Source: a virus (lineage: Duplodnaviria > Heunggongvirae > Uroviricota > Caudoviricetes). From it: 16,991 bases of DNA. The DNA is taken from positions 1 to 16,991 of the IMG/VR virus record IMGVR_UViG_2703718832_000008; one strand, written 5' to 3'. This document shows positions 910 to 14,887 of this stretch, piece after piece. The notes below the pieces were generated by a model that had not been told where the DNA came from, did no database searches, and saw nothing but the letters and a program-made list of their open reading frames with translations. Both the position numbers and the translations under genes were made by a program. The number at the start of each line of letters is the position of its first letter. Position 1 is the stretch's first letter.

Positions 910-946
910 AAAAAAGGCGCTTCCCCATGCCGAGTAGCGCCTTTTT
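910..946 (-). terminator. Bidirectional intrinsic terminator hairpin (probable fis terminator)
   Basis: Perfect 11-bp inverted repeat AAAAAGGCGCT (911-921) / AGCGCCTTTTT (936-946) around a 14-nt loop, with an A-tract on one side and a T-tract on the other; lies just downstream of the fis stop-codon remnant when read on the minus strand. Confidence 0.7.
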
Positions 947-970
947 AATCAAGCATTTAGCTAACCTGAA

Positions 971-988
971 TTAGTTCATGCCGTACTG
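971..988 (-). other. fis: Remnant of the fis 3' end (Y-G-M-N-stop) marking the chromosome/island junction; putative attachment-site core
   Basis: Minus strand reads TGA CAG TAC GGC ATG AAC TAA. The last four codons plus stop match the Fis C-terminus (...KKYGMN) as I recall it, but an in-frame stop sits immediately upstream and the sequence beyond 988 is unrelated AT-rich DNA. Confidence 0.6.
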
Positions 989-1155: not shown

Positions 1156-2379
1156 ATGGCTGGCGAACTTAACAAACTGAGCGACAGGAAGTTAAAGGGA
1201 TTACATGGTATCCCGGCCAGTAAGATTGAGTTCTATGCTGATGGTGCCGGGCTGAGCGCCAAGGTAACGAAAGCTGGTGGTATTAGCTGGGTGTTTACTT
1301 ACCGACTCGACGGGCAGAAGCTGCATCGTCTTACTCTGGGACGATACCCGGATATGAGCCTCAAAGAAGCCCGTTCTTCGCGTGATAAATGCCGCCAATG
1401 GCTGGCCTCAGGTAAAGATCCAAAGCACCAGTTGGCGCTGGCCACTCAGGAAACGCTTAAACCGGTCACTGTTAAGGAAGCTATAGAATACTGGATACGC
1501 GAATATGCAGAAGAGAACCGCGCGAATGTTGAACGGCACAAAGCGGAGCTGCGAAAACACATTTATCCTTATATAGGGAAAATGGCGCTCGCTGACTGTG
1601 AAACACGATACTGGCTTGACTGCTTTGACAGGATGAAAAAGAAAACTCCAGTCGCCGCAGGTTATGTGTTCCAGATGTGCAAACAAGCCCTGAAATTCTG
1701 CCGGGTTCGTCGCTATGCTGTGAGTACCGCGCTTGAAGATTTAACAATTCCAGATGTCGGTAAAAAACAGGCAAAAAAAGACCGGGTATTAAACGATAAA
1801 GAGGCTGGCGATTTATGGGCTGCCATTTCCTCTGGCACTTGCTTCATGCCTTACTACACCAGGCTACTGACAATCTTAATGGTGTTTGGGTGCCGAACGC
1901 AGGAGGCCAGGCTATCAGAGTGGAGTGAATGGGATATGGATGCCTGGGTCTGGACAGTTCCCAAAGAGCACAGCAAGGGCGGCGAGAAGATTGTAAGACC
2001 TGTGCCGGATGCCATGCGCAAATTCATTGAAATACTGCATGATGAAACGAAACTATCCGGTCTTTTGCTTGGGTCGGTTAAAGGCAGTGAAGCGGTAAGC
2101 CAGTGGGGCCGTAGCGTTTATAAAAAGCTGGGACATTCTGAACCATGGACACTGCACGATCTAAGACGAACATTAGCAACGCATATGAATAATATGGGTA
2201 TAGCACCACACGTTGTTGAACAGTTGCTGGGGCACTCAATGCCGGGAGTCATGGCGATTTATAATCGCAGCCTGTACTTGCCTGAGAAACTGGATGCGCT
2301 GAATAAATGGTATGACCGTCTCGATATTTTGGCGGGTAATCACTCGAATATTGTTATTTTAAAGGCTGGTGAGAAATGA
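1156..2379 (+). CDS. int: Tyrosine site-specific integrase, P4-like family
   Basis: 407 aa; N-terminal arm-binding-like region, C-terminal catalytic region with HDLRRT and LLGHS...AIYNRSLY motifs (R..HxxR..Y catalytic pattern); GGGTGG ribosome-binding site upstream; placed at the island edge. Confidence 0.95.
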   Translation: MAGELNKLSDRKLKGLHGIPASKIEFYADGAGLSAKVTKAGGISWVFTYRLDGQKLHRLTLGRYPDMSLKEARSSRDKCRQWLASGKDPKHQLALATQETLKPVTVKEAIEYWIREYAEENRANVERHKAELRKHIYPYIGKMALADCETRYWLDCFDRMKKKTPVAAGYVFQMCKQALKFCRVRRYAVSTALEDLTIPDVGKKQAKKDRVLNDKEAGDLWAAISSGTCFMPYYTRLLTILMVFGCRTQEARLSEWSEWDMDAWVWTVPKEHSKGGEKIVRPVPDAMRKFIEILHDETKLSGLLLGSVKGSEAVSQWGRSVYKKLGHSEPWTLHDLRRTLATHMNNMGIAPHVVEQLLGHSMPGVMAIYNRSLYLPEKLDALNKWYDRLDILAGNHSNIVILKAGEK

Positions 2380-3164
2380 AAAAGATAAATAAAATGACCG
2401 ATTTGCCGAAATGGTTTTCATTGGACAATTACAATTCTATCAATGGGCTGAGTGATCTTGATTTAATTAATCAGTTAGCTATGAGAATGGAAGTTGCTAA
2501 TGATGATTTTGAATGGCTTGATACCTATCCCGGAGCAAGAAATGAGTTCGCTTCATTTATGGAAGAAAGATTTAGTAACCCAATTCGGCCGCTGAGCGGA
2601 AAATTATTTGCAGAAAAAATAAAAAGAAAAAAATATTCTGAATGGCAAATGGATTCCGTCGGAGGTGTTGAGCCTTTAAGATTAATTGATGTGATGCAGT
2701 TGTCTAAGAAAGCCGCTCATTATATTGATGAAAATAAAATTAATCGCTCATTGCGTGGACAAAAAAGGTCTGTAAGTAAGACCATAAGCGATAATGATCA
2801 AATGCACATTACTTTAGATTTGTCTTGGCCTGATGAAATTTTATTAAGCGATTTGGCTGCATTGTTGCCAATATGGCGAATGGATCTTGAAAGGAAAAGT
2901 GAAAATAGTTGTAAGTTAAGTAATAGCTGGAGTGTAATCAAAAAGAAAATATTCGATTACAAGATATTGCCAATGTTAGACCTTATGGAGTGGGCTAAAA
3001 TTAACAATGCAACAATCACTAACAGAGTTTTATCTTTGGCCCTATTTCCTAATGCAGAGTATGACGCCATTGGTATCGCTCAAACGATCAAACCGTTCAT
3101 TAGAAATTTTTCCGCAGATTTTTCTATAGAAATATTAAAGCGCAAAGCTATGGATTCATTTTAA
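2376..3164 (+). CDS. Hypothetical protein, AT-rich accessory gene translationally coupled to int
   Basis: 262-aa ORF whose ATG overlaps the int stop (ATGA). Visibly lower GC than the flanking genes, with several A-tracts. No recognisable catalytic motif by eye. Confidence 0.65.
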   Translation: MKKINKMTDLPKWFSLDNYNSINGLSDLDLINQLAMRMEVANDDFEWLDTYPGARNEFASFMEERFSNPIRPLSGKLFAEKIKRKKYSEWQMDSVGGVEPLRLIDVMQLSKKAAHYIDENKINRSLRGQKRSVSKTISDNDQMHITLDLSWPDEILLSDLAALLPIWRMDLERKSENSCKLSNSWSVIKKKIFDYKILPMLDLMEWAKINNATITNRVLSLALFPNAEYDAIGIAQTIKPFIRNFSADFSIEILKRKAMDSF

Positions 3165-3267
3165 TCGGGAAATCCATATAGAAATAATTAAAAATTATCT
3201 AATAGTGAACCATGCTTTTTAATAGCAAATAATAGCCTCCACAAAACGTAGAAACAGTGGAGGCAAC

Positions 3268-3552
3268 ATGCAAAATATCACCTTTACCCCGCCAAATCCT
3301 GAGCAGCGCCGCACCCTTTTAGAAGAGTACGGCTTTAAGTTCGACCGTCGAATTCGTGAAGAAGAATGTAGCGAGATCACCAGCCTTTCCCGTTCCAGCC
3401 GCTGGAAAATGGAGCAGCAAGGTCGATTCCCGCCACGCTGCCACTTTGGTCGTAACAGCTGCGCCTGGCTTCTTTCTGATGTGCTCTGGTGGGTTCGTAA
3501 TCCGCCTGCAGTAGAGAACGTCAATAACCCGTACAGCCGCAAATCTGCTTAA
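3268..3552 (+). CDS. alpA: AlpA-family phage transcriptional regulator (excisionase-like helix-turn-helix)
   Basis: 94 aa; region RIREEECSEITSLSRSSRWKMEQQGRFPPRCHFGRNSCAWLLSDVLWWV matches the AlpA/Vis-type helix-turn-helix as I recall it; GGAGG ribosome-binding site at 3259-3263. Confidence 0.88.
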   Translation: MQNITFTPPNPEQRRTLLEEYGFKFDRRIREEECSEITSLSRSSRWKMEQQGRFPPRCHFGRNSCAWLLSDVLWWVRNPPAVENVNNPYSRKSA

Positions 3553-3572
3553 TTAACTACAGGTAATAGAAT

Positions 3573-4379
3573 ATGGAAAAAATAACTGCCTTGGCTGGCA
3601 GCGGCCAAACTCAATCCGAAACCAGCCAGAAAGATATTTCCAGCGATAATTTTGCTGCGCGAATCCCTGTAACCATGAGCAAGATTGGCGGGAAAGAAAC
3701 CCAGTCTGTAAGCGGACGTAAGCTGCATACGTTTCTGGCTGTAGGGCGAGACTTTACCACCTGGATGAAAGCACGCATCAAACAGTATGGGTTTGTTAAA
3801 GGGGTTGATTATGTAATTGTTGAAGATTTGAGCACCCCAAAACGGGGGAGCGCAAAATCTCGCCAACAAGTCGAGCACGATTACATTGTTAGCCTGAATA
3901 TGGCTAAAGAGCTTTCTATGGTTGAGCGCAACGCGCAAGGCAAGATGGCCCGCCAGTATTTCATCGACTGTGAAGAACGTCTGCGCCGCGTAGCACCAGA
4001 GGAACATGAGGCGGCGTTGTTGGGCTGGCGTAAAAATCGTGTAGCTGCCTGCGAAGATCATAAGAGTATGGCCGATGCAATGAAGGGCTATATCGAGCGC
4101 ACCGGCGACAGGCAGCACGGCTTTGCCTACAGCAATGAATGCTCGTTCCTGAATAGCCTTGTGCTGGGTATGCACCCGCGAGTGTGGGCGAAACAGAAAG
4201 AAATCCCGGTTAAGCAGGTGCGTGACCATATGAACGCCGATCAGCTCGCGCTGCTGGCTTATCTGGAAAGCCGTGATTGTGCTCTGCTGGATCTTGATAC
4301 CCGTACAGCAACCCGTAAGGCGAAACTCACCGAACTGGCACAACGCTGGCTGGTGAAGCGTGTTGGAGGTGCTGAGTGA
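3573..4379 (+). CDS. Phage antirepressor-like protein (AntA/AntB N-terminal domain)
   Basis: 268 aa; segment SGRKLHTFLAVGRDFTTWMKARIKQYGFVKGVDYV fits the AntA-domain pattern (LH.FL.V...F..W...RI..YGF..G.DY). Only 20 bp downstream of alpA, so probably co-transcribed. The start could instead be the internal Met at about 3675. Confidence 0.7.
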   Translation: MEKITALAGSGQTQSETSQKDISSDNFAARIPVTMSKIGGKETQSVSGRKLHTFLAVGRDFTTWMKARIKQYGFVKGVDYVIVEDLSTPKRGSAKSRQQVEHDYIVSLNMAKELSMVERNAQGKMARQYFIDCEERLRRVAPEEHEAALLGWRKNRVAACEDHKSMADAMKGYIERTGDRQHGFAYSNECSFLNSLVLGMHPRVWAKQKEIPVKQVRDHMNADQLALLAYLESRDCALLDLDTRTATRKAKLTELAQRWLVKRVGGAE

Positions 4380-4539
4380 TTTTGCATAACTCAATCAGGG
4401 TTGCGCAGAATTTGAGCAGGCGAAATTCGCACGCGCAAATCAAGCTCGGTGATATGCCGAGTTTGAACAACCGCGTACGTTTAACGTACGGACATCGCAA
4501 CCCATTGAATCAATTTGATTATAACGAACCGTTAGAATT

Positions 4540-4730
4540 GGCGAGCAACAAACACGAACAGTATTCGGGTTCGCCTGAACATCAACACTGCTTAGGTTCG
4601 GCAATCATCTTTAAAGGATGTATCAAGGAAAATCAACAACGTGCAGTTGAGGTTCCAACGAATAACGTAGAGAGCTGCAATGGCAGCGCATTTTTGCTCT
4701 ACGAGGGAAATCAACAACGTACAGTTTTGT
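4540..4730. repeat. Four degenerate direct repeats (~30 bp units, consensus roughly ATCAACAACGTGCAGTTGAGGTTC) in a noncoding region
   Basis: Related units start near 4547, 4581, 4631 and 4710; the two best copies are AAATCAACAACGTGCAGTT (4629-4647) and AAATCAACAACGTACAGTT (4708-4726). Two CGTACG palindromes lie just upstream at 4472-4488. No convincing ORF on either strand. Confidence 0.5.
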
Positions 4731-4860
4731 ACCGTAATCCAAATTTGGCTTACGAGAGGGTAGTACCTCAAAGCCACCAGGTTAACCACGCCGCCAAAAG
4801 ATATGCGGAAAACAAACCCTCTTTAAGAGGGGGAGTCCAGCGTTTGTGCGGGTCATTATG

Positions 4861-4892
4861 TCCTGCGCAAAACAACCCCGAAATTATCGGGG
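4861..4892 (-). terminator. Intrinsic terminator for the minus-strand RHH gene
   Basis: 6-bp stem CCCCGA/TCGGGG with 5-nt loop (4876-4892), followed on the minus strand by TTGTTTTG; sits about 30 nt downstream of the RHH stop. Confidence 0.55.
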
Positions 4893-4923
4893 CAGTCCAC
4901 AGCATTACGGGGAGTAACCCTGT

Positions 4924-5115
4924 TCAGCCTTTTGGCTCGATGCCTTGTCGCAAAAGTTCTTTACGGGCAAGAGCCTTTAGCCAATTGCCAAGGCTCACGC
5001 CTTCCCGGCTGGCAGCCTCATTTAGCTGCTGGCGTAGTTCGGGTGTTATGCGGATCTGGAAGGTCGGTGACAAACCTTCACCTTTCGGAGTTTTATCTCT
5101 TTTGATAGTTGACAT
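4924..5115 (-). CDS. Small ribbon-helix-helix (Arc/CopG-like) DNA-binding protein, putative island regulator
   Basis: 63 aa starting at the internal ATG (5113-5115) with an AGGAG ribosome-binding site upstream on the minus strand; segment FQIRITPELRQQLNEAASREGVSLGNWLKALARKEL has the beta-strand/helix-helix pattern of RHH proteins. The N-terminal extension to 5229 in the ORF track looks non-coding. Confidence 0.6.
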   Translation of the reverse strand: MSTIKRDKTPKGEGLSPTFQIRITPELRQQLNEAASREGVSLGNWLKALARKELLRQGIEPKG

Positions 5116-5163
5116 GTACGTACGTAATCTCCTACTATGGATTCTGTTATGTACGTACGTTAT
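5114..5163. promoter_or_regulatory. Two 15-bp operator-like palindromic sites ATGTACGTACGT[A/T]AT in a divergent control region
   Basis: Copies at 5114-5128 and 5149-5163, centres 35 bp apart; the first contains the perfect 10-bp palindrome TACGTACGTA. They lie between the divergently oriented RHH gene and the HNH-AP2/primase operon. Confidence 0.5.
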
Positions 5164-5444
5164 CACGGCGCATGTAACAAAAGCAACGCCCCGGAGTGCG
5201 GGAACACTGCCGAGGCGTCTAACCACCAACGTTAATAGGAGTAACGCTATGGCTATGCCGCAGTGTAACCAAACTCATCCTAAAAATCGCGTATTTATCT
5301 TTTTGGCTTTAAATCGTGCCGACATGCAGAGCAGGCCACATCGTGAAGTTATTACCGCCGTCAGTGAGCGGGAAGCACGTAAGCTGCTAGTTGGCCGTTT
5401 TATTTTGGTTTTTGCAGGACGCTTACCAGCCAAGGAGATTTATC

Positions 5445-5954
5445 ATGGCTAAATTAACCAATAAATATTTAAAAGAAATTTTAGAATACAGCCCAGAATC
5501 TGGGGTGTTTATTTGGAAAGTTTGTCGTGGTACTACAAAGGCAGGGGATATAGCTGGCAGTATCAAAGTAAGAGGGTATTTAGATATTAAGATTAATAAG
5601 AAGCTATATAAGGCTCATAGGCTCGCATGGTTTTATATGTATGGAGTTTGGCCCGCTAATCTAATTGACCATATTAATGGTAATCGCAGTGATAATCGGT
5701 TGTGTAACTTGCGAGAGGCCACTCACAAAGAAAATTGCAGAAATCAAAGGATGTATAAAAATAACAAGTCAGGAGTAAAGGGAGTTAACTGGAATAAAAC
5801 AGGAAGAAAATGGCTGGCTGCGTGTGCTGTTGACGGGAAAAGATATCACCTAGGAATGTTTGAAGATATTTCAGAAGCAGAGAAAACTATTAAAGATTTT
5901 CGTGAGAAATATCATGGGGAATTCGCCAAGCATGAAGTGACCGGGGAGTTATAA
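5445..5954 (+). CDS. HNH endonuclease with C-terminal AP2 DNA-binding domain (homing-endonuclease-like)
   Basis: 169 aa from ATG 5445 (AAGGAG ribosome-binding site 7 nt upstream). HNH_3-type motif HRLAWFYMYGVWPANLIDHINGNRSDNRLCNLREAT, then AP2-like SGVKGVNWNKTGRKWLAACAVDGKRYHLGMFEDISEAEKT. Visibly AT-rich compared with downstream genes. Confidence 0.8.
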   Translation: MAKLTNKYLKEILEYSPESGVFIWKVCRGTTKAGDIAGSIKVRGYLDIKINKKLYKAHRLAWFYMYGVWPANLIDHINGNRSDNRLCNLREATHKENCRNQRMYKNNKSGVKGVNWNKTGRKWLAACAVDGKRYHLGMFEDISEAEKTIKDFREKYHGEFAKHEVTGEL

Positions 5955-5955
5955 A

Positions 5956-6150
5956 ATGCGTGAGCCAATCTGTCTGGAGCAGGCCGAATATAAATCAGCG
6001 CTGGCTTCATCACTTTACGAAACCATCCTGGAAAAAGCCTCTGCTGAATGTTCAGAAACGCTGCTGAATCTGATTTCTATTGCGTGTGATTTTAATCAGG
6101 AAATTCACCGGGCATTAATCGCCGAGCTGCACATGGGAGAGACAAAATGA
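5956..6150 (+). CDS. Hypothetical small protein (64 aa)
   Basis: ATG immediately after the upstream stop, with GGGGAG ribosome-binding site; first of three tightly coupled small ORFs leading into the primase gene. Confidence 0.5.
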   Translation: MREPICLEQAEYKSALASSLYETILEKASAECSETLLNLISIACDFNQEIHRALIAELHMGETK

Positions 6151-6353
6151 GACAGGTTCCTTTTGAGGTCCTGATGCACGCCGAAGACGCACTGGCATAC
6201 AGCAATCAGGCTCTGGCTATGCTGGAAATCTGGATGGACTCCCTCGGCGAAGGTGATGAACACGAATCTAACTGTGTGGCCGCCATTTTCAGCCTGGTGC
6301 ATGAGTCCAAAGATCGTCTACAGAAAGCGCGGGAGGCTTCCAGTGCAAAATGA
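6147..6353 (+). CDS. Hypothetical small acidic protein (68 aa)
   Basis: ATGA start/stop overlap with the previous ORF; GGGAGAG ribosome-binding site. Confidence 0.5.
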   Translation: MRQVPFEVLMHAEDALAYSNQALAMLEIWMDSLGEGDEHESNCVAAIFSLVHESKDRLQKAREASSAK

Positions 6354-6597
6354 CTTTGTAAGCGATGCGCGGCACGGGAAGCGCGGAGAGTTCAAATTGC
6401 CGCTGTTTTGTGAACTGACTGCAGAAGGGCAGAGTCACATCACCTTTGCCCTAAAGTTTGCCCCCGAGTCTGTGGCTGTGTTCCATCCCGATTCGGGAGA
6501 AATATCTCACTGGCTCAGCCGCGGAAACGAGATTATCGACATTTACGGTTGCTATGCCGTCTTTCCTCGCAATGGCATTAGGGAGGAACAGCAATGA
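6343..6597 (+). CDS. Hypothetical small protein (84 aa, GTG start)
   Basis: GTG at 6343 preceded by GGGAGG 6 nt upstream; overlaps the previous stop and ends in an ATGA overlap with the primase start. The ORF-track start at 6253 would run inside the previous gene and has no ribosome-binding site. Confidence 0.45.
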   Translation: MQNDFVSDARHGKRGEFKLPLFCELTAEGQSHITFALKFAPESVAVFHPDSGEISHWLSRGNEIIDIYGCYAVFPRNGIREEQQ

Positions 6598-9284
6598 GCC
6601 GCGCAATTGAGATTATCCGTGAAGTTAAGCGCCGAGCTGCCGGAAGCTGGGAAAGCCTACTTCCTCAGTGCGGGGTGACGGTTCCGCCGAAAGGCCGTCA
6701 CGGCCCATGCGCCATCTGTGGTGGATCTGACCGATTTCACTACATTGACGACCACGGCGGCGGCGAGTGGCATTGTCGCCAGTGTGACGAGCCAAATCAC
6801 GGCGACGGTCTGGATCTCATTGCCAGATCTCAGGGCATTACCATAACCGCTGCGGCGCAGAAAGTATCCTCTGTGCTGGGTGTTGATGCCCGGACACCGG
6901 AACCGAAGCCAGCCAGAGAGAAGCCTCAGACGGATATCGCCGGGAAAGTTGCGGCGCTGGTTGCTAAAGCCTCTCCGGGGCAGTCTGCTTACCTTGCATC
7001 AAAGGGGCTTCAATGCCCCTTCCCGATGCTGTCCGATGGGTCGCTGCTGCTGGTGCTGAAAAACGGTGCTGGCGCGACGACAGGCGCACAGGTGATTAAG
7101 CCAGATGGCAGTAAGCGGCTGGTGGCCGGAACGGTAAAGAAAGGCTCTTTTTGCGTGGTTAATTCCGGTGAAACGCCGGAGACGGTGATTATCGCCGAAG
7201 GACTGGCAACGGCGCTTTCGGTTCAGCAGTTTCGCCCAGATGCGACAATTATCACAGCGATTGACGCCGGGAATTTGCTGTCAGTTGCGCAGGTGATGCG
7301 ACAGCGTTACCCGGATGCGCAGATCATCATCGCCGCAGATAACGATATTAAGCCTGGCGAACCAAACACGGGTAAATCAGCCGCAGAAAAAACCGCTAAA
7401 GCTGTCTCTGGCTGGGTAGCTTTACCTCAGTCTGAGGAAAAGGCCGACTGGAATGATTTTCACCAGCAACACGGGCTGGAAGCAGCCGCAGCAGCATTTA
7501 ATGATTCGATGTACCAGCCGGAGGGCGAAAAGGTGGTGGTAAAACTTAAGTCTATTGACGGCGGTAAAAAAGAGCAAAAATCAGCTCTGCAAGGTGACGA
7601 ACTGAAACCACGCGTGGAGAGCCGTAACGATGGCTTGTACTGGATTACGCCAAAGGTGGACAAGGACAGCGGAGAAATCATCAATAACGAAGCGTGGCTT
7701 TGTTCGCCTCTTGAGGTAGTTGGTTCAGGTAGTGACGGGGCAGAACGCTATCTTGTTTTGCGCTGGCGTTCGCCGCGTGGCCACGAAGATATTACCAGGG
7801 CGATCCCTTGCGCTGATGTTGGAGAGCGTGAGGGATGGCGCTCACTTAAAGCTGGAGGGGTTAACGTGACCACTAAAAACACCTTTCGTGCCATTCTGGC
7901 CGATTGGCTGCAGCAGTGTGGATCTGGTCAGGAATGGATTATCACTCATACCACTGGCTGGCATAATGGGGCATATATCATGCCTGATGGCGAAGTTATT
8001 GGTGATCCAGAGACACCCATTCTCTTTAATGGTCGCAGCGCTGCATCTTCCGGTTATGCCGTTTCTGGTACGGCTGAGGGCTGGCGGGATTCAGTGGCTT
8101 ATCTGGCCGGTGGCAACCCATCAATGATGCTGGGAGTGGCGGCGGCATTATCCGCGCCGCTTATTGGGCTGGTGGGTGCTGATGGTTTCGGTGTCCACTT
8201 GTTCGAGCAGTCGAGCGCCGGTAAGACCACTACAGCTAATATTGCGAGCAGTCTGTGGGGAGAGCCGGATGCTCTGCGCCTAACGTGGTACGGTACTGCG
8301 CTTGGTATCGCTAACGAAGCGGAGGCGCATAACGACAGTCTGTTACCGCTGGATGAAGTGGGGCAGGGGAGCAGCGCCAAAGACGTTGCCACTTCGGCAT
8401 ACACCTTGTTTAACGGTGCTGGAAAGCTGCAGGGAGCCAAAGAGGGCGGCAATCGGGAGTTGAAACGTTGGCGCACTGTAGCAATCAGTACCGGGGAAAT
8501 GGATATCGAGACGTTTCTTTCTGCTGGTGGGCTAAAAGTTAAGGCAGGCCAGTTGGTTCGCCTGCTGAATATCCCTATGGAGAAATCGACGGCCTTTCAT
8601 GGCCTGCAGAACGGCAAGGCTCATGCTGATGCACTGAAGCAGGCATGGATTGAAAATCACGGTGCAGCGGGCCGAGAGTGGGTTAAATGGTTGGCGGCTC
8701 ACCAGAAGGAAGCTAAACAGGCCGTACATGACGCCCAGACGCGCTGGCGCGGACTCATTCCGGCTGATTATGGCGAGCAGGTGCACCGCGTGGCAGAACG
8801 CTTTGCAATCCTTGAAGCTGCGCTGGTGACTGGTGCATCAATCACCGGATGGGATGAACAGGCCAGCCGTGATGCTATCCAGCATAGCTTTAATGCCTGG
8901 GTGAAAGAGTTCGGAACGGGAAATAAAGAGCACCAGCAGATCATCGAGCAGTGCGAGGCGTTTCTTAATGCTTATGGTCTGAGCCGGTTCGCCCCTTTGC
9001 CTTATGATCCTGCAAGCCTGCCAATCAGTAATCTTGCCGGGTATCGTAAGCGTAAGAGCAACCATGATGATGCGCCCATGGTGTTCTATACATTCCCTGC
9101 AACGTTTGAGAAGGAGATAGCGCAGGGATTTAATGCTAGGCAGTTTGCCCGTGCGCTTGCCGCTGCCGGTTTGCTCTCTGAGCCATCAAGTGGGAGAGGA
9201 TATCAACAGAAATCACCGCGAATTGATGGGCGCCAAATCAACGTTTATGTACTTCAACAAGTTGCAGAAGAAGGGGCGGAATAA
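6594..9284 (+). CDS. Primase-helicase (zinc-ribbon + TOPRIM primase + P-loop NTPase domains)
   Basis: 896 aa. N-terminal Cys/His cluster (CAICGG...HCRQC); TOPRIM-like IIAEGLATALS and IIAADND; Walker A SSAGKTT and Walker B-like LLPLDEV in the C-terminal half. Sits immediately upstream of the iteron origin. Confidence 0.9.
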   Translation: MSRAIEIIREVKRRAAGSWESLLPQCGVTVPPKGRHGPCAICGGSDRFHYIDDHGGGEWHCRQCDEPNHGDGLDLIARSQGITITAAAQKVSSVLGVDARTPEPKPAREKPQTDIAGKVAALVAKASPGQSAYLASKGLQCPFPMLSDGSLLLVLKNGAGATTGAQVIKPDGSKRLVAGTVKKGSFCVVNSGETPETVIIAEGLATALSVQQFRPDATIITAIDAGNLLSVAQVMRQRYPDAQIIIAADNDIKPGEPNTGKSAAEKTAKAVSGWVALPQSEEKADWNDFHQQHGLEAAAAAFNDSMYQPEGEKVVVKLKSIDGGKKEQKSALQGDELKPRVESRNDGLYWITPKVDKDSGEIINNEAWLCSPLEVVGSGSDGAERYLVLRWRSPRGHEDITRAIPCADVGEREGWRSLKAGGVNVTTKNTFRAILADWLQQCGSGQEWIITHTTGWHNGAYIMPDGEVIGDPETPILFNGRSAASSGYAVSGTAEGWRDSVAYLAGGNPSMMLGVAAALSAPLIGLVGADGFGVHLFEQSSAGKTTTANIASSLWGEPDALRLTWYGTALGIANEAEAHNDSLLPLDEVGQGSSAKDVATSAYTLFNGAGKLQGAKEGGNRELKRWRTVAISTGEMDIETFLSAGGLKVKAGQLVRLLNIPMEKSTAFHGLQNGKAHADALKQAWIENHGAAGREWVKWLAAHQKEAKQAVHDAQTRWRGLIPADYGEQVHRVAERFAILEAALVTGASITGWDEQASRDAIQHSFNAWVKEFGTGNKEHQQIIEQCEAFLNAYGLSRFAPLPYDPASLPISNLAGYRKRKSNHDDAPMVFYTFPATFEKEIAQGFNARQFARALAAAGLLSEPSSGRGYQQKSPRIDGRQINVYVLQQVAEEGAE

Positions 9285-10173: not shown

Positions 10174-11340
10174 ATGAAGAAACTACTCGAATTACGCCAG
10201 CAGAAAGCCGCACTCAAAACACAGATGCGTTCCATGCTGGACAAAGCCGACACCGAAAAGCGCAGCCTGAACGAAGAAGAGGGCAAAAAGTTCGACGAAC
10301 TCCGCGCCCAGGCTGATGCGCTTGAAGTTGAAATCACCCGCCTTGAAGCCGTCGCCGACGATCAGCGCAATCTGCCTGGTACTTCCGTCGAAGGTGAGCC
10401 AGTAAGCAACGACGAGCTGCGCCACTACATCATGACAGGTGATACCCGTTCTCTCTCCACGCTGGTGCAGGCTGACGGCGGTTATACCGTTATCCCTGAG
10501 CTGGACAAAGAGATTATGCGCCAGTTGCAGGATGATAGCGTGATGCGTTCCATCGCAACGGTGAAGACCACCAAAACCAACGAATACCAGAAGCTGGTAT
10601 CTGTGGGCGGCACTACTGTTAATCGTGGTACCGAAGGTGAGGCACGTACCGAAACCAGTACGCCGAAGATGGAGCGCGTTGATATCAAACTCAACCCGAT
10701 CTACGCCTACCCGAAAACCACTCAGGAGATTCTCGACTTCTCTGAGGTGGACATTCTGGGCTGGCTGTCTTCTGAAATCGCCGACACCTTCACCGCTACC
10801 GAAGAGAGCGACTTTGTGAACGGCGACGGTGATAAAAAATCCAAAGGGTTCCTGTCTTACCCTCGCGCTGTCACTGCCGACAAAACCCGTCCGTTCGGTA
10901 CGCTGGAGAAGATGGAGGCGGCTGACGTTTCCTCTGATGGCCTGATCGACCTGCTGTATAAGCTGAAAGCCAAATACCGCAAAAACGCCGTATGGGTGAT
11001 GAACTCCAACACCGCCGCCAAACTGCAAAAGCTGAAAAACGGCAACGGAGATTACATCTGGCGCGATCGTCTGGTTGCCGGTTCTCCCGATACGCTGCTG
11101 GGCCGTCCTGTTCAGTATCTGGAAACCATGCCGGATGCGGATGCAGGTAAAGCGTTCCTCGCGGTAGGCGACTTCAAGCGCGGCTATTTCATCGTGGATC
11201 ACACCACTGGCGTGCGTACCCGTCCTGACAACATCACCGAACCGGGTTTCTACAAGGTGCATACCGATAAGTACCTGGGCGGCGGTGTGGTGGACTCCAA
11301 CGCCATCAAGGTGCTTGAGCTTTCAGGCTCCGGTTCCTGA
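10174..11340 (+). CDS. Major capsid protein, HK97 fold, with N-terminal coiled-coil (delta/scaffold-like) domain
   Basis: 388 aa; N-terminal roughly 100 residues are charged and coiled-coil-like, the remainder resembles HK97-family major capsid proteins; the long antisense ORF 10192..11262 is a shadow. Confidence 0.92.
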   Translation: MKKLLELRQQKAALKTQMRSMLDKADTEKRSLNEEEGKKFDELRAQADALEVEITRLEAVADDQRNLPGTSVEGEPVSNDELRHYIMTGDTRSLSTLVQADGGYTVIPELDKEIMRQLQDDSVMRSIATVKTTKTNEYQKLVSVGGTTVNRGTEGEARTETSTPKMERVDIKLNPIYAYPKTTQEILDFSEVDILGWLSSEIADTFTATEESDFVNGDGDKKSKGFLSYPRAVTADKTRPFGTLEKMEAADVSSDGLIDLLYKLKAKYRKNAVWVMNSNTAAKLQKLKNGNGDYIWRDRLVAGSPDTLLGRPVQYLETMPDADAGKAFLAVGDFKRGYFIVDHTTGVRTRPDNITEPGFYKVHTDKYLGGGVVDSNAIKVLELSGSGS

Positions 11341-11350
11341 TTTGACGTTT

Positions 11351-11372
11351 AAGGGGCTGCGGCCCCTTTTTG
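11351..11372 (+). terminator. Intrinsic terminator/attenuator immediately after the capsid gene
   Basis: GC-rich hairpin AAGGGGC-TGCG-GCCCCTT followed by a T-run, 10 nt after the capsid stop and 20 nt before the protease start. Confidence 0.6.
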
Positions 11373-11391
11373 CCCTCTGTGGAGTCCAGTA

Positions 11392-11952
11392 ATGAAAACA
11401 ATTGATTTTGAAATCCGTACTTCCGAAGTGAGCGCCAGCAACAAAAAGCTGGTGGGCTATGCCGTGCGCTGGAACAGCCTGTCAGAAGTTATCTGGGATG
11501 AGTTCCGCGAACAGTTTGCGCCGGGAGCGTTTAAAGACAGCCTGGCATCCGGTAGCGATGTGCGTGCGCTGTATGAGCATAACTATACCCAGCTGCTGGG
11601 CCGCACTAAATCCGGCACGCTGGTGCTGTCCGAAGACGATACCGGGCTGCGCTTCGAGCTGACTCCGCCGAATACCCAGCTTGGCAACGATGTGCTGGAG
11701 CTGGTGGAGCGCGGGGATATCTCCGGCATGAGCTTTGGTTTCCGGGCGCTGAAAGAGGCGTGGGATATTGCTCAGTCTCCATATCTGCGCACTGTTACCG
11801 CTGCCGAACTGCGGGAGATTACCGTTACCTCTATGCCTGCTTATCCTGAGTCTGGCGTGGAAATCGCGCACCGTTCGCTTTTCTCCCAACATCCTGAACT
11901 GCGCCGCGCTGGCGATAACCGTCGCCGCTGGGCTGATTTAGCGGGGCTCTGA
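11392..11952 (+). CDS. Prohead protease, HK97 family
   Basis: 186 aa; resembles HK97-family prohead proteases (segments ALYEHN...LLGRT and LRFEL); GGAG ribosome-binding site. Confidence 0.9.
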   Translation: MKTIDFEIRTSEVSASNKKLVGYAVRWNSLSEVIWDEFREQFAPGAFKDSLASGSDVRALYEHNYTQLLGRTKSGTLVLSEDDTGLRFELTPPNTQLGNDVLELVERGDISGMSFGFRALKEAWDIAQSPYLRTVTAAELREITVTSMPAYPESGVEIAHRSLFSQHPELRRAGDNRRRWADLAGL

Positions 11953-11953
11953 T

Positions 11954-13189
11954 ATGTGGAATATCTGGCCGTTTGGCCGTAAGTCTGAACCCTCAGAGCA
12001 GCGCAGCATGACCATTGATGAATTTCTGGCGATGGCAGGGATTCCAAATACCGGATCAGGCGAGTATGTGTCTGCGGGTACTGCGGAATCTCTGCCGGCG
12101 GTCATGAACGCCGTATCAGTTATCAGTGAGGCGGTGGCAACAATGCCCTGCTATCTCTACCGCGTCCGTAATGATAATGGTCGTGAGGCGCGAGAATGGC
12201 TGAGTAATCACCCGGTGGATTTTCTCCTGAACGAGCAGCCGAACGACTGCCAGACGCCTTATCAGTTTAAACGCACGATGATGCGCCATTGTCTGCTGAA
12301 TGGTAACGCCTATGCGGTGATCCAGTGGGGCCGCGACGGCCAGCCGCAATCCCTGCACCCGTATGCGCCGGGGGCGGTTGTTCCTGAGCGTATCGGCCAG
12401 CATAAGTACAAATACACCGTTACAGAGCCGTTTACCGGGGCTGTGCGCACCTATCTACAGGAAGAGATTCTGCACCTGCGTTACTCCACCGATGATGGCT
12501 TTCTGGGGCGTTCGCCTATTACTACGTGCCGTGAGGCGCTGGGGTTAGGTCTGGCCCAACAGCGCCACGGTGCCAGCATTATGAAAGATGGCATGATGGC
12601 GGCGGGCGTCGTCACTACTGCTGAATGGCTCGACAGCGTGAAGGGTAAGCAGGCTCTGGACGCACTGGAGCGCTACAAAGGTGCCAGAAATGCCGGGAAA
12701 ACGCCGATCCTTGAAGGTGGCATGGACTACAAGCAGCTTGGCATGAGCAATCAGGATGCCGAATGGCTGGCGTCGCGCCGGTTCTCCATTGAAGACATTG
12801 CCCGCATGTTCAACGTGTCGCCCATCTTCCTGCAGGAATACAGCAACAGCACCTACAGCAATTTCAGCGAAGCGAGCCGCGCCTTTCTCACCATGACCAT
12901 GCGCCCGTGGCTGGCGAACTTCGAGCAACAAATCAAATCTGCTTTGCTGGTGGCCTCTCCGGTTCCGGGAACCCGTTATCAGGTGGAGTTTGACTCTGCT
13001 GACCTTCTCCGTGCCACACCTACCGAGCGTTACGCCACTTATGAGCGAGGCATTAAGAACGGGATCATGAACCCGAACGAAGCCCGTGAGCGCGAGGGGA
13101 TGCCGCCGCGTGAAGGTGGTGACGAATTCAGCCAGGCATGGAAGCAGGAAGTGAAGATCAGCAAAGACGGCAAGGAAGGTGACGCATGA
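11954..13189 (+). CDS. Portal protein, HK97 family
   Basis: 411 aa; start 1 nt after the protease stop; size and sequence character consistent with HK97-type portal proteins. Confidence 0.9.
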   Translation: MWNIWPFGRKSEPSEQRSMTIDEFLAMAGIPNTGSGEYVSAGTAESLPAVMNAVSVISEAVATMPCYLYRVRNDNGREAREWLSNHPVDFLLNEQPNDCQTPYQFKRTMMRHCLLNGNAYAVIQWGRDGQPQSLHPYAPGAVVPERIGQHKYKYTVTEPFTGAVRTYLQEEILHLRYSTDDGFLGRSPITTCREALGLGLAQQRHGASIMKDGMMAAGVVTTAEWLDSVKGKQALDALERYKGARNAGKTPILEGGMDYKQLGMSNQDAEWLASRRFSIEDIARMFNVSPIFLQEYSNSTYSNFSEASRAFLTMTMRPWLANFEQQIKSALLVASPVPGTRYQVEFDSADLLRATPTERYATYERGIKNGIMNPNEAREREGMPPREGGDEFSQAWKQEVKISKDGKEGDA

Positions 13190-13524
13190 GAGCCGGGGGG
13201 CTGAGAAGCCGCGTCACTATTCGGGTATTCACTACCCACAGGGAGCCGTCCGGTCAGGTTGTTCAGGTCTGGGAAGACGGGGAAACCATATGGGCTGAGG
13301 TTAAGGGGATCAGTGGCCGAGAGTTAATGGCGTCAGGTGCCGAGGTTGCCGAAGCGACGATCCGCGTTTGGGTGCGTTTCCGCCGTGATATTACCGCAGC
13401 CAACCGTCTGAAAGTGCTTACTGGCCCGTTTGCTGGCAGCACTCTCAATATTATCGGGCCTCCTATTCCTGATTCGGAAGGTACCCGGCTGGAAATTCTC
13501 TGCAAGACAGGAACGGAAAAATGA
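13186..13524 (+). CDS. Head closure / head-tail adaptor protein
   Basis: 112 aa; ATGA overlap with the portal gene; resembles phage head-closure proteins and sits in the expected head-completion position. Confidence 0.75.
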   Translation: MRAGGLRSRVTIRVFTTHREPSGQVVQVWEDGETIWAEVKGISGRELMASGAEVAEATIRVWVRFRRDITAANRLKVLTGPFAGSTLNIIGPPIPDSEGTRLEILCKTGTEK

Positions 13525-13814
13525 CAGCAGAAATCACCCTGGAAGAAGCAAAGCTGCATTGCCGTATTGATGATGATTATGAAGACACGCTGATACAGGC
13601 GTACATCGATGCGGCGCTGGAGGTTTGCCAGAAGCATATCGGCAAGCGGTTTGATAACGGGCTGGAGTTTACGCCAGCTATCAAGATTGGCTGTCTGATG
13701 TACGTATCTCAGCTGTACGAGTACCGCACGATGATTGGTGATACCGACGCCAAAGAGATACCGATGGCTGTCTCTGCGTTGTGGTCTGTCTATCGTGATG
13801 TGGGGGTGTACTGA
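13521..13814 (+). CDS. gp6-like head-tail connector protein
   Basis: 97 aa; N-terminus ITLEEAKLHCRIDDDYEDTLIQAYIDAA is the usual signature of gp6-like connector proteins; ATGA overlap upstream. Confidence 0.85.
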   Translation: MTAEITLEEAKLHCRIDDDYEDTLIQAYIDAALEVCQKHIGKRFDNGLEFTPAIKIGCLMYVSQLYEYRTMIGDTDAKEIPMAVSALWSVYRDVGVY

Positions 13815-14257
13815 TGCCGTGGCAACCACTACGCCGGTGCAATGAGCCGGGATGTAATAAACGGGTGAAGTCTGGCAAGTGTGACGAGCATAAGCGGGAT
13901 GCCCGCCGACAAAGCGACAGCCGAAGAGGTACGCGAACAGAGCGTGGTTACTCCAACCGCTGGGGCGAATACCGTCGTCATTTTCTAAAAGCTAATCCGC
14001 TGTGTGTCCATTGTCTCAAGGCTGGCGTCTATGCATCGGCAACTATCGTCGATCACATCATCCCTATCGAGGGTGAAGCTGATGTGCTGTTCTGGCCCGC
14101 CAGTAATCACCAGTCGTTATGCGCTGCCTGTCATGGACGGAAGACAACCACAACAGACCCGGTGACGAAGCAGCAGCGTAAAGCCGGTAAGTTCCGCGAG
14201 CAGGAAGAAGCAGCACGTCATCGCACCGACTGGATCTATGAGGCAAACAATGACTGA
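13814..14257 (+). CDS. HNH endonuclease associated with the terminase
   Basis: 147 aa; Cys-rich N-terminus, HNH motif DHIIPIEGEAD...NHQSLCAACH; located directly upstream of terS as in cos-type HK97-like packaging modules. Confidence 0.9.
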   Translation: MPWQPLRRCNEPGCNKRVKSGKCDEHKRDARRQSDSRRGTRTERGYSNRWGEYRRHFLKANPLCVHCLKAGVYASATIVDHIIPIEGEADVLFWPASNHQSLCAACHGRKTTTTDPVTKQQRKAGKFREQEEAARHRTDWIYEANND

Positions 14258-14402
14258 GCAGGAACAGCAGCGGCTGATTAGTGGGCTGATAAAGCAGCGC
14301 GAGGCATGGCAACCAGCCAGACAGAGAGCGCATAAGAAGCCCGTAGCAAAGCGCATGAGCCAGCGTGACCGGGAGCTTATGGAATGCTTTCGCAACCGCT
14401 GA
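14250..14402 (+). CDS. Possible small basic protein (50 aa); uncertain
   Basis: ATG overlaps the HNH stop by 8 nt; the ORF is below the length cut-off of the supplied track; product is Q/R/K-rich; no supporting motif. Confidence 0.3.
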   Translation: MTEQEQQRLISGLIKQREAWQPARQRAHKKPVAKRMSQRDRELMECFRNR

Positions 14403-14409
14403 CAGGCCG

Positions 14410-14530
14410 AATGGACGGGGTGGGGGAGGTTTTCAGGACAAACCCCTCTCAGCGAGGAACCACCCGCCCCCTCAAATTTTTACGCACGGTGATTTTTTTG
14501 AAAATAAAACAGACAGGAAAACAGTAAGTT
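14410..14530. other. Candidate cos / packaging-recognition region between HNH and terS
   Basis: GC-rich G-tract GGGGTGGGGGAGG (14417-14429) and C-tract CCACCCGCCCCCTC (14460-14473) with partial dyad symmetry, followed by T-runs; cos-type phages with HNH-TerS-TerL place cos here. Confidence 0.4.
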
Positions 14531-14887
14531 ATGGCAAGACCACCCAAACCGCCCGCCTACCTTGATGAAATCGCGGCGCAGCAGTGGAAAGCAAAGGCGA
14601 AGCAGCTGGCGGAGCGCGGTGATCTGACGCCTGCCGACTGGAACAACCTTGAGCTGTATTGCGTCAATTACTCGATGTACCGCAAAGCCGTGGAAGACCT
14701 TGCCACGCGGGGATTCAGCATAGTGAACAGCCAGGGCGGTGAGAGCCGTAACCCGGCACTGAGCGCAAAAGCGGATGCCGAAAAAATTCTCATAAAAATG
14801 TCGTCGCTGCTGGGCTTTGATCCGGTAAGCCGCCGCCGTAATCCGGTAGAAACGGAAGAGGAGGACGAGCTTGACCGTCTGGAATGA
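14531..14887 (+). CDS. terS: Terminase small subunit, P27 family
   Basis: 118 aa; N-terminus MARPPKPPAYLDEIAAQQWK and overall size match P27-family small terminases. Confidence 0.85.
   Translation: MARPPKPPAYLDEIAAQQWKAKAKQLAERGDLTPADWNNLELYCVNYSMYRKAVEDLATRGFSIVNSQGGESRNPALSAKADAEKILIKMSSLLGFDPVSRRRNPVETEEEDELDRLE

What the first reader, a model, noticed from the sequence alone, without database searches (positions are those of the whole stretch)
2376..3164. AT-rich 262-aa unknown gene translationally coupled to the integrase
Its ATG overlaps the int stop, and its base composition is clearly more AT-rich than int and alpA on either side, suggesting separately acquired cargo. Integrase-proximal positions in satellites and islands are common sites for anti-phage or host-interaction cargo. 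I could find no recognisable motif.
Basis: inference. Interest (0 to 1): 0.5.

Follow-up and report, generated by a model that had tools for sequence, protein, structure and literature searches.

The report
Swappable integrase-coupled gene beside alpA
The AT-rich gene that overlaps the integrase stop codon is a real protein of the uncharacterised DUF6387 family; it always sits just upstream of the master switch gene alpA in phage satellites and is exchanged between otherwise identical islands as a cassette, so it looks more like part of the excision/induction control than like free cargo.

Summary
ORF 2376-3164 (262 aa) starts in an ATGA overlap with the integrase stop. Its GC is 34%, against 48% for int and 52% for alpA.

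It is not motif-free: it matches Pfam DUF6387 over its full length (E 5.5e-30). The family has no characterised member and at least 1,123 representative clusters. A confident AlphaFold model (pLDDT 93.6) has no neighbour in the PDB or among viral models.

The island is a capsid-forming PICI inserted in the 3' end of fis, the same att core as Vibrio PICMI satellites.

In about 27 DUF6387 loci examined, plus two published islands, alpA follows within 2-160 nt. This holds across different att sites, primases and element types.

Sibling islands with identical Int and AlpA nevertheless carry DUF6387 alleles only 34% identical, or unrelated genes of 216-309 aa, or rarely nothing. The swapped block is window ~2418-3230 and includes the whole region upstream of alpA.

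The slot matches the "integrase-overlapping gene" (iolg) reported as required for PICMI115 excision.

Best reading, about 0.45: a partner in the AlpA/Int excision-induction switch. Main rival, about 0.3: anti-phage cargo of the PICI 5' accessory region. No known defence family matches. Function is untested.

The parts
974..985 (-). att core TACGGCATGAAC, a copy of the 3' end of fis (codons YGMN, followed by the stop). This is the int-side junction of the island.
   Evidence: It has one exact match in the window. In the near-identical E. coli ABW_S38 island the same 12-mer occurs at the int side and again at the stop codon of fis, 16.4 kb away. It is the same direct repeat (AATACGGCATGAACTAA) as in Vibrio PICMIs.
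1156..2379 (+). Tyrosine integrase of the P4 type, with an arm-binding domain and a catalytic domain.
   Evidence: Pfam Arm-DNA-bind_3 at 5.4e-19 and Phage_integrase at 2e-17.
2376..2379 (+). ATGA overlap: the DUF6387 start codon overlaps the int stop codon, the arrangement expected for translational coupling.
   Evidence: Read directly from the sequence. Ten DUF6387 loci show the same 4-nt overlap and four more show overlaps of 11-20 nt by ORF calling, out of about 23 distinct loci where the int side is present.
2376..3164 (+). DUF6387-family gene, 262 aa. This is the finding.
   Evidence: PF19924 at E 5.5e-30 over residues 1-246 and phrog_23422 at 3e-9. A profile search found 1,123 representative clusters at E<=1e-3. 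The AF2 model has pLDDT 93.6 and pTM 0.85, is almost all helical, and has no PDB or BFVD neighbour.
2376..2495 (+). Conserved N-terminal segment (residues 1-40), motif LPxWFxLxxYxxLxxLxDxxLxxQLxxR. R37 is invariant; F14 and Y19 are nearly invariant.
   Evidence: 90-sequence alignment A3 and its per-position conservation profile.
2496..2780 (+). Variable middle region (residues ~41-135), rich in insertions and deletions between subfamilies. The RSLRGQKRSVS motif here is conserved only in the closest subfamily.
   Evidence: Conservation profile; alignments A2 and A3. Many family members match the profile in two stretches separated here.
2781..3125 (+). Conserved C-terminal half (residues ~136-250). 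R168 and D202 are invariant; D153, L164, Y195, L203, W206 and T237 are nearly invariant.
2418..3230 (+). The exchanged cassette: the body of the gene plus the whole 3' spacer, ending just before the alpA leader hairpin.
   Evidence: blastn of the window against IMG/VR locus L087 aligns 43-2417 (90%) and 3231-4678 (94%), with no homology between. Across this pair Int is 100%, AlpA 100% and DUF6387 34% identical at protein level.
2627..2633 (+). A7 homopolymer run inside the gene. It is A6 in a 96-99% identical relative, which frameshifts that copy.
   Evidence: Alignment of the window with L038 (IMGVR_UViG_2778261179_000013). A sequencing error cannot be excluded.
3165..3234 (+). AT-rich spacer downstream of the gene. 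It travels with the cassette, so any alpA promoter or operator more than ~37 nt from the alpA ATG lies here.
   Evidence: No consensus sigma-70 site was found on the + strand.
3235..3264 (+). Leader hairpin GCCTCCAC-N14-GTGGAGGC. Its 3' arm contains the alpA Shine-Dalgarno sequence. It marks the right boundary of the cassette.
   Evidence: The 8-bp stem appears in both the MFE and centroid folds. Equivalent hairpins with different, compensating stem sequences occur in most related loci. Mean P(SD paired) is 0.63 against 0.44 for shuffles, and 17 of 30 loci exceed 0.7.
3268..3552 (+). alpA, the master activator and excision regulator of Gram-negative PICIs.
   Evidence: Pfam Phage_AlpA at 3.9e-10. 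Its role is taken from PMC6092414 and PMC10803314.

Best explanation
The gene encodes a DUF6387 protein, the commonest occupant of the int-to-alpA slot of P4-integrase/AlpA phage satellites. The element here is a capsid-forming PICI inserted in the 3' end of fis.

I think it is a life-cycle component, not free cargo. It belongs to the same positional class as the 'integrase-overlapping gene' (iolg) of Vibrio PICMI satellites.

Proposed mechanism (all steps inferred):
1. It is translated from the constitutive int mRNA by termination-reinitiation at the ATGA overlap, so it is present with Int while the island is quiescent.
2. Read-through into alpA is kept silent by the leader hairpin that buries the alpA ribosome-binding site.
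3. When a helper phage induces alpA, the protein acts with AlpA, and possibly Int, to license excision and induction.
4. The conserved N- and C-terminal parts contact the conserved partner. The variable middle (residues ~41-135) reads a variable cue, such as a helper-phage or host protein.
5. The gene and the alpA upstream region are exchanged together, so each cassette would carry its own specificity.

Shown here: the anatomy, the synteny, the cassette exchange, the orphan fold and the hairpin. Inferred: co-expression, a positive role in excision, the identity of the partners, and any role as a specificity determinant.
For: (1) alpA follows the gene within 2-160 nt on the same strand in every DUF6387 locus examined.
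- Cases include E. coli, Klebsiella, Proteus, Providencia, Xenorhabdus, Serratia, Salmonella, Pseudoalteromonas and metagenomes.
- Protein identity falls to 25%. The att sites differ (fis, tRNA-Leu, a dsrC-side site, a lysS-side site), as do the primases (DUF927 or D5_N/DUF5906).
- Sources.
- In ICEKp258.2 the order is DUF6387->alpA with int at the other end. In a Serratia island it is DUF6387->alpA->int->int. The invariant neighbour is therefore alpA.

(2) Where extra genes sit at the 5' end (L024), they lie between int and DUF6387 and leave DUF6387-alpA intact.

(3) The start overlaps the int stop in 14 of about 23 distinct loci, usually as ATGA.

(4) The island has the same att core and the same int-X-alpA layout as PICMIs.
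- In PICMI115, deleting iolg abolished excision, packaging and transfer.
- 21 of 35 PICMI subfamilies have such an overlapping gene, falling with the contiguous ones into 13 families of unknown function.
- Known defence systems sit in a different hotspot, prim-fis (PMC10803314).

(5) The exchanged block includes the entire alpA upstream spacer, as expected if the protein and a cis element belong together.

(6) tblastn against 50,697 phage and 72,556 plasmid records found the family in three records only. One is an excised cf-PICI (int->DUF6387->alpA-like) and one is a Salmonella island at tRNA-Leu (int->DUF6387->alpA). The third is a 1.8-kb unannotated fragment whose context cannot be judged. 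No copy lay inside a recognisable phage or plasmid backbone.

(7) How helper phages switch on alpA is stated to be unknown for Gram-negative PICIs (PMC6092414). In PIME1 elements another regulator next to alpA (luxR) is essential for excision.
Against: - Sibling islands with 92-100% identical Int and 83-100% identical AlpA carry DUF6387 alleles of only 29-41% identity. Others with nearly the same int and alpA (about 96-97% at the DNA level) carry unrelated proteins, with hhalign probability below 1%.
- Two of 14 fis-site satellites sampled from IMG/VR have no gene in the slot. A specific Int or AlpA cofactor would not be so replaceable.
- A packaged cf-PICI (vB_KppS-Ant) with 97% identical Int carries a 216-aa gene in the same position instead; its family was judged by size and position only.
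- Two copies are frameshifted while int and alpA are intact.
- No DNA-binding, enzymatic or other motif was found. The fold is an orphan. The family median pI is 5.5.
- Homology between DUF6387 and any PICMI IOLG was not tested, because the sequences could not be obtained.
- The PICMI115 deletion was complemented with int and iolg together. A polar effect on int is therefore not excluded.
Confidence: 0.45

Rival explanations
1. Accessory anti-phage or helper-interference gene. The int-alpA interval is the 5' accessory region of PICIs, and DUF6387 is a single-gene immune or interference factor under arms-race selection. Its fixed position would arise because it spreads only by homologous recombination through the conserved int end and the alpA leader.
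For: - PICIs are reported to carry immune systems at their 5' or 3' ends (PMC11364771, citing Fillol-Salom 2022).
- The composition is AT-rich.
- Allelic divergence is extreme between identical flanks, and unrelated families turn over in the slot.
- The gene appears dispensable: some slots are empty and some copies are frameshifted.
- Functional islands exist without it.
Against: - No PADLOC, NCBIfam or Pfam defence hit was found for DUF6387 or for any other occupant of the slot.
- It is always a single gene of similar size, and no known multi-gene system was found in this slot in the loci sampled.
- In PICMIs the recognisable defence systems sit in a different hotspot.
- The family was not found in phage or plasmid backbones.
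- Adjacency to alpA persists at 25% identity and in elements whose int is elsewhere.
Confidence: 0.3
2. A negative gate or sensor, functionally like the Stl repressor of staphylococcal islands. The protein is made constitutively with Int and holds alpA, or AlpA itself, off until a helper-phage protein binds its variable region. Cassette alleles would then define which helpers induce the island.
For: - The gene sits directly upstream of alpA.
- The alpA upstream region co-travels with it.
- The variable middle lies between conserved ends.
- The layout allows constitutive coupling to int.
- The literature states that no repressor or inducer mechanism is known for Gram-negative PICIs.
Against: - No helix-turn-helix or other DNA-binding signature was found.
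- Most family members are acidic.
- Deleting the positional analogue in PICMI115 abolished excision rather than derepressing it.
- Islands with an empty slot exist.
Confidence: 0.12
3. A competition or exclusion factor aimed at rival satellites that use the same att site or the same AlpA/Int type. Allele diversity would then reflect satellite-against-satellite conflict.
For: - Many different islands share the fis att core and nearly identical Int and AlpA but differ in the slot gene.
Against: - There is no direct evidence.
- The family also occurs at other att sites with other integrase lineages.
Confidence: 0.06

Closest known systems
iolg, the integrase-overlapping gene of Vibrio PICMI satellites (Barcia-Cruz et al., Nat Commun 2024, PMC10803314)
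   Same: - Its start codon overlaps the int stop as ATGA.
- It lies between int and alpA on the same strand.
- The island is inserted at the 3' end of fis with the same core repeat, (AA)TACGGCATGAAC(TAA).
- The slot is filled by many unrelated families of unknown function, and is empty in a few elements.
   Different: - Homology to any PICMI IOLG family was not shown.
- The element here is a 16-kb capsid-forming PICI of Enterobacteria, not a 6-kb minimal Vibrio satellite.
- The requirement for excision is known only for PICMI115 and was not tested here.
Immune genes of the PICI 5' accessory region (Fillol-Salom et al. 2022, as cited in PMC11364771)
   Same: - The position is next to int at the 5' end of a PICI.
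- The content is variable and the composition is AT-rich.
   Different: - No similarity to any catalogued defence protein was found.
- The gene is strictly single and strictly adjacent to alpA.
- No phenotype is known.
Stl / Rpr master repressors of Gram-positive PICIs (SaPIs)
   Same: - It sits next to int in the regulatory region.
- It is highly divergent between otherwise similar islands, which in SaPIs sets helper specificity (background in PMC6092414).
   Different: - No DNA-binding domain was detected.
- It is co-directional with the downstream operon rather than divergent.
- The positional analogue behaves as a positive factor.
The intA-yfjH-alpA region of prophage CP4-57 in E. coli K-12
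   Same: - This is the archetypal AlpA element, and it also has one uncharacterised gene of about 300 aa between int and alpA.
   Different: - yfjH is on the opposite strand.
- yfjH is not a DUF6387 protein; it has no significant Pfam hit.
The LuxR-family regulator next to alpA in PIME1 integrative mobilizable elements (bioRxiv 10.64898/2026.01.12.698999)
   Same: - It is a second gene in the alpA regulatory region of an int/alpA element, and it is essential for excision.
   Different: - It is an unrelated protein with a known DNA-binding family.
- It is oriented divergently.
- The helper is a conjugative plasmid, not a phage.

Membership tests
Pfam DUF6387 (PF19924) | Whole-protein score above the curated gathering threshold (28.9 bits), with near full-length coverage of the model. 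| tested here: met
   105.2 bits, E 5.5e-30, residues 1-246 on model positions 1-248 of 258. RefSeq names the 99% identical gene 'DUF6387 family protein'.
iolg class (integrase-overlapping gene of fis-site satellites) | The start codon overlaps the int stop codon. | tested here: met
   ATGA at 2376-2379.
iolg class (integrase-overlapping gene of fis-site satellites) | The gene lies between int and alpA on the same strand, in a satellite integrated at the fis 3' end with the TACGGCATGAAC repeat. | tested here: met
   Gene order. The att core is at 974-985, and in the near-identical ABW_S38 island the second copy is at the fis stop codon. The repeat is as listed for PICMIs.
iolg class (integrase-overlapping gene of fis-site satellites) | The gene is required for helper-induced excision of the island. 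| not testable with these tools
   This needs a non-polar deletion and attP/attB qPCR. It is reported only for PICMI115.
iolg class (integrase-overlapping gene of fis-site satellites) | Sequence homology to one of the PICMI IOLG/ICG families (a-j). | not tested
   The paper's supplement lists locus tags only.
Known anti-phage defence systems (PADLOC-DB) | A significant match to a model of a known or candidate defence protein. | tested here: not met
   0 families at E<=1 for the window protein. 0 families for five other occupants of the slot.
Known anti-phage defence systems (PADLOC-DB) | Protection against phage infection when the gene is expressed. | not testable with these tools
   This needs plaque assays.
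Excisionase / recombination directionality factor (Xis, AlpA, HTH_17 type) | A small winged-helix DNA-binding fold or profile match. | tested here: not met
Stl-like master repressor | An HTH DNA-binding domain and divergent transcription from the operon it controls. | tested here: not met
   No HTH was detected. The gene is co-directional with alpA.
Capsid-forming PICI (the host element) | int, alpA and a primase, plus the element's own capsid, protease, portal, connector, terS and terL genes, with no tail or lysis genes called in the window's equivalent of the annotated ABW_S38 island. | tested here: met
   int, alpA and a DUF927 primase by Pfam. The ORFs from 10174 to 16532 have the same lengths and order as the annotated capsid, protease, portal, head-closure, connector, HNH, terS and terL genes of the ABW_S38 island.

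The most novel reading that the evidence does not exclude
DUF6387, and by analogy the unrelated proteins that replace it, would be the missing helper-phage sensor of Gram-negative PICIs. It would be a constitutively made protein whose variable region recognises a helper-phage product and whose conserved scaffold controls alpA or AlpA. Each exchangeable cassette (the protein plus its cognate alpA upstream region) would then set the helper range of the island. This would be the functional counterpart of Stl in staphylococcal islands, built on a previously unseen fold.
Probability: 0.15. Interest if true: 0.8.

Novelty: new member of a known kind. Interest (0 to 1): 0.5.

Why it matters
How a helper phage switches on alpA, and so wakes up a Gram-negative PICI, is an acknowledged gap (PMC6092414). 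This gene is the most constant neighbour of alpA across many satellites and some ICE-like islands. It is co-translated with the integrase, has a confidently predicted fold with no known relative, and is exchanged together with the alpA upstream region between islands that are otherwise identical.

That makes it a concrete, cheap target. One clean deletion and a few allele swaps between natural cassettes with identical Int and AlpA would show whether the slot encodes excision or induction specificity, or a new single-gene defence. Either answer would give a function to a family with at least 1,123 representative sequence clusters.

Tried and rejected

3. **Sequence libraries.** PADLOC and NCBIfam gave nothing. 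PHROGs gave only an unknown-function family. A PDB profile search gave nothing meaningful. Longer family members carry no fused domains.

4. **Widening the family with the word-indexed search.** This returned only 15-16 proteins each time.

5. **Whether PICMI IOLGs are DUF6387.** The supplement gives locus tags only. A tblastn of the integrase against the phage collection found no PICMI record.

6. **K-12 CP4-57 yfjH as a possible DUF6387 member.** It is not one.

7. **RNAalifold on the alpA leader hairpins.** It gave no structure because MAFFT put the arms out of register. The evidence for the hairpin rests on single-sequence folds.

8. **Other scans.** Rfam has no family for the region. The sigma-70 scan found no + strand promoter between the gene and alpA.
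Full report
**1. The observation**

The window has an ORF at 2376..3164 on the + strand, 262 aa, with an ATG start. The sequence reads ...GGTGAGAAATGAAAAAG..., so the ATG at 2376 overlaps the TGA of the upstream 407-aa ORF at 1156..2379. The upstream ORF is a P4-type tyrosine integrase, and the ORF at 3268..3552 is an AlpA-family regulator.

GC content is 0.342 for the ORF, 0.484 for int and 0.523 for alpA. Third-position GC is 0.327, against 0.493 and 0.547. The description is therefore accurate.

The ORF is a real gene, for four reasons:
- It has a full-length match to Pfam DUF6387 (E 5.5e-30).
- It has homologues from 99% down to about 25% identity.
- The N-terminal MK(K/R)IN is conserved, which fixes the overlapping ATG as the start.
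- With a 90-sequence alignment, the AlphaFold2 model reaches pLDDT 93.6 and pTM 0.85.

The family is catalogued, and RefSeq annotates it by name in E. coli ABW_S38. Nothing is known about what it does. A full-text search found two papers, both of which only list it in gene tables.

**2. The element**

The window is a satellite of the capsid-forming PICI type. Its gene order is as follows:
- int, DUF6387, alpA and an AntA-like gene;
- an HNH/AP2 gene and a DUF927 primase;
- a block whose ORF lengths and order match the annotated major capsid, HK97 protease, portal, head-closure, connector, HNH, terS and terL genes of the near-identical ABW_S38 island.

The 12-mer TACGGCATGAAC at 974-985 (minus strand) is a copy of the last codons of fis. 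In ABW_S38 it occurs once next to int and once at the fis stop codon, 16.4 kb away. This is the same direct repeat as the one that flanks the Vibrio PICMI satellites.

**3. The protein**

A profile search of 1.84 billion representative proteins found 1,123 clusters at E<=1e-3, almost all 245-335 aa. Named members are Enterobacterales: Serratia, Yersinia, Proteus, Providencia, Klebsiella, Xenorhabdus and Rosenbergiella. One is from Pseudoalteromonas.

Conservation is bipartite:
- Residues 1-40 are conserved, with the motif LPxWFxLxxY...R37.
- Residues ~136-250 are conserved. R168 and D202 are invariant; D153, Y195, L203, W206 and T237 are nearly so.
- Residues ~41-135 are variable and differ by insertions and deletions between subfamilies.

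The model is almost entirely helical. It has no structural neighbour:
- Foldseek against BFVD gives a best E of 3.5.

PADLOC and NCBIfam give no hit, PHROGs gives only an unknown-function family, and a PDB sequence-profile search gives nothing useful. Longer members carry no extra domains. The family median pI is 5.5; this allele is 8.8. Sequence and structure therefore give no function.

**4. Context: a fixed neighbour**

I examined every DUF6387 locus I could obtain. In all of them alpA follows on the same strand within 2-160 nt, and an Arm-DNA-bind_3 integrase precedes wherever the upstream DNA is present.

The set spans:
- different att sites: fis, tRNA-Leu in Salmonella houtenae, a site next to a DsrC-family gene in Xenorhabdus and Providencia, and a site next to lysS in Proteus penneri;
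- different primases: DUF927 or D5_N/DUF5906;
- elements with and without capsid genes;
- an excised circular cf-PICI deposited as a Klebsiella 'plasmid'.

The start overlaps the int stop in 14 of about 23 distinct loci, ten of them as ATGA.

Three cases show that the constant partner is alpA rather than int:
- In a Pseudoalteromonas element, two small genes lie between int and DUF6387, but DUF6387 stays next to alpA.
- In ICEKp258.2 the order is DUF6387->alpA with int at the far end.
- In a Serratia island the order is DUF6387->alpA->int->int.

tblastn found the family in only one plasmid record and two phage-collection records. Two of these are islands of this kind (an excised cf-PICI and a Salmonella island). 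The third is a 1.8-kb unannotated fragment whose context cannot be judged.

**5. Context: a swappable cassette**

Only 19 of 5,426 complete E. coli genomes carry this integrase lineage, all at yhdJ|fis.

The slot contents I inspected were:
- DUF6387 in ABW_S38, QL57EC, 873.10 and ET670, as three very different alleles;
- a 272-aa protein in PE15;
- a 309-aa protein in GN02050;
- a 216-aa protein in OW1E2;
- in S163-2, an ORF cut by IS1 that starts like the 216-aa type.

The remaining genomes have hit patterns matching one of these types, but I did not inspect them.

An unbiased sample of fis-site satellites, drawn from IMG/VR by the att core, gave 14 loci with both int and alpA:
- DUF6387 in 5;
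- other families in 7;
- no gene in 2.

The other families are unrelated to DUF6387: hhalign probability is below 1%. None is a known defence protein. All are single genes of 216-309 aa, most overlap the int stop, and all are AT-rich relative to int and alpA. The AT-richness held in 12 of 12 loci, including hosts where int is 56% GC.

The sharpest case is the window against IMG/VR locus L087. Int is 100% identical, AlpA is 100% identical, and DUF6387 is 34% identical. DNA homology runs 43-2417 and resumes at 3231. The exchanged unit is therefore the body of the gene plus the whole spacer, up to 37 nt before the alpA ATG.

Across 18 loci, many pairs have Int above 90% identical but DUF6387 at only 29-41%.

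Two copies are frameshifted while int and alpA are intact. One has a 1-nt loss in the A7 run at 2627-2633. The other has several frameshifts. Sequencing error is possible.

A packaged, induced cf-PICI (vB_KppS-Ant) with 97% identical Int carries a 216-aa gene in the same position (1-nt overlap with int). I did not compare it by sequence with the 216-aa family.

**6. The junction with alpA**

Immediately upstream of alpA lies a hairpin, GCCTCCAC-N14-GTGGAGGC (3235-3264). Its 3' arm contains the Shine-Dalgarno sequence.

Related loci have hairpins in the same place with different, mutually compensating stems. Examples are ACCCTCAC/GTGAGGGT, TGTCCTCG/CGAGGACA, ATGCTCTCG/CGAGAGCAT, CCCCTG/CAGGGG and CTCCGT/ACGGAG. 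The mean probability that the SD is paired is 0.63, against 0.44 for shuffled sequences.

I infer that this keeps read-through transcripts from int-DUF6387 from being translated into AlpA. I did not test this.

**7. The literature bearing on the slot**

Barcia-Cruz et al. (PMC10803314) describe the following in PICMI115:
- a gene overlapping int by ATGA, named iolg, that lies between int and alpA;
- its deletion abolished helper-induced excision, packaging and transfer;
- 21 of 35 PICMI subfamilies have such a gene, and together with contiguous genes they form 13 families of unknown function;
- three subfamilies have none;
- recognisable defence systems lie in another hotspot, prim-fis.

A caveat applies. 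Complementation used int and iolg together, so a polar effect on int is not excluded.

On the other side, PICIs are said to carry immune systems at their 5' or 3' ends (PMC11364771). Fillol-Salom et al. 2018 state that alpA is switched on by the helper by an unknown route, and that no repressor is known.

**8. Interpretation**

Three things argue that the protein works with the AlpA/Int switch (confidence ~0.45): the invariant linkage to alpA, the coupling to int, and the positional identity with iolg.

The following argue for an accessory role, most plausibly anti-phage or interference (~0.3):
- its replaceability by unrelated proteins;
- empty slots;
- possible pseudogenes;
- AT-richness;
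- extreme allelic divergence between identical flanks.

The two readings can be reconciled if the slot encodes a specificity module of the switch. That gives the more novel reading: a helper sensor analogous to Stl (~0.15). None of these is tested.

I file the gene as a member of Pfam DUF6387 and, by position only, of the iolg class.

Noticed in passing
window 3235-3264 (leader of alpA); also L002, L003, L005-L008, L012, L019, L021, L024, L026, L029, L031, L033, L034, L087, L090-L092: A hairpin buries the alpA Shine-Dalgarno sequence in its 3' arm. It is conserved in position but not in sequence, with many compensating stem variants. In some loci (for example L033) a run of T follows it, as in a terminator. 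It may insulate alpA from the constitutive int transcript. No Rfam family matches.
   Followed up: partly
window 974-985 and 910-977 (minus strand): The island is inserted in the last codons of fis. The original fis downstream region therefore now sits next to int, 16 kb from fis. That region contains a GC-rich hairpin flanked by A and T runs (AAAAAGGCGCT...AGCGCCTTTTT). It gives a weak, sub-threshold match to the Salmonella sRNA STnc40 (25.6 bits against a gathering score of 45, E 0.17).
   Followed up: no
window 2627-2633; L038 (IMGVR_UViG_2778261179_000013); L056: An A7 run inside the gene is A6 in a 96-99% identical relative, which frameshifts that copy. Another relative (L056) has several frameshifts in DUF6387 while int and alpA are intact. 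The cause could be decay, phase variation or homopolymer sequencing error.
   Followed up: partly
L004 5128-5727, same type in L080 and L084 (E. coli OW1E2 and IMG/VR): In cassettes carrying the 216-aa slot gene, the spacer before alpA is about 600 nt. It contains tandem short repeats (CAGCATTCAA about six times, and a series of GTTCATCA-like repeats), which look like iterons or operator arrays.
   Followed up: no
L002, L003, L031: the 91-nt spacer after int: A second type of int 3' end (...QNVVLLPVANRD*) is followed by a conserved GC-rich 91-nt spacer. This spacer is shared by three unrelated slot genes (272 aa, 309 aa, and a DUF6387 of 268 aa). In this type the left edge of the cassette is therefore exactly the start codon.
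   Followed up: partly
window 4376-9284 compared with L001 17980-20707: The window differs from the ABW_S38 island in its middle part. The window has an HNH_3/AP2 gene (5442-5954) and an 896-aa DUF927 primase. ABW_S38 has Icd-like genes and a 589-aa primase. The satellites are mosaics of modules.
   Followed up: no
L095 2036-4333 (vB_KppS-Ant) and L033 2582-5989 (Klebsiella pKp_Goe_795-4): Two related cf-PICIs carry a gene annotated as a tail tape measure protein in the 3' accessory region after terL. This is odd for elements that are said to lack tail genes.
   Followed up: no
L094 4145-5101 (E. coli K-12 CP4-57): In the archetypal AlpA element, the int-alpA interval holds the uncharacterised 318-aa gene yfjH on the opposite strand. 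It is not a DUF6387 protein.
   Followed up: partly
L057, L058, L071, L002, L003/L083: A second slot family of 234-309 aa shares an N-terminal motif ([YF]CxLxRAxxLLGCExxDLLH). Most members also share a C-terminal motif (...FIKSLL..YG.D.A.NPRK...). Several overlap int by ATGA. One member hits phrog_7144, of unknown function.
   Followed up: partly
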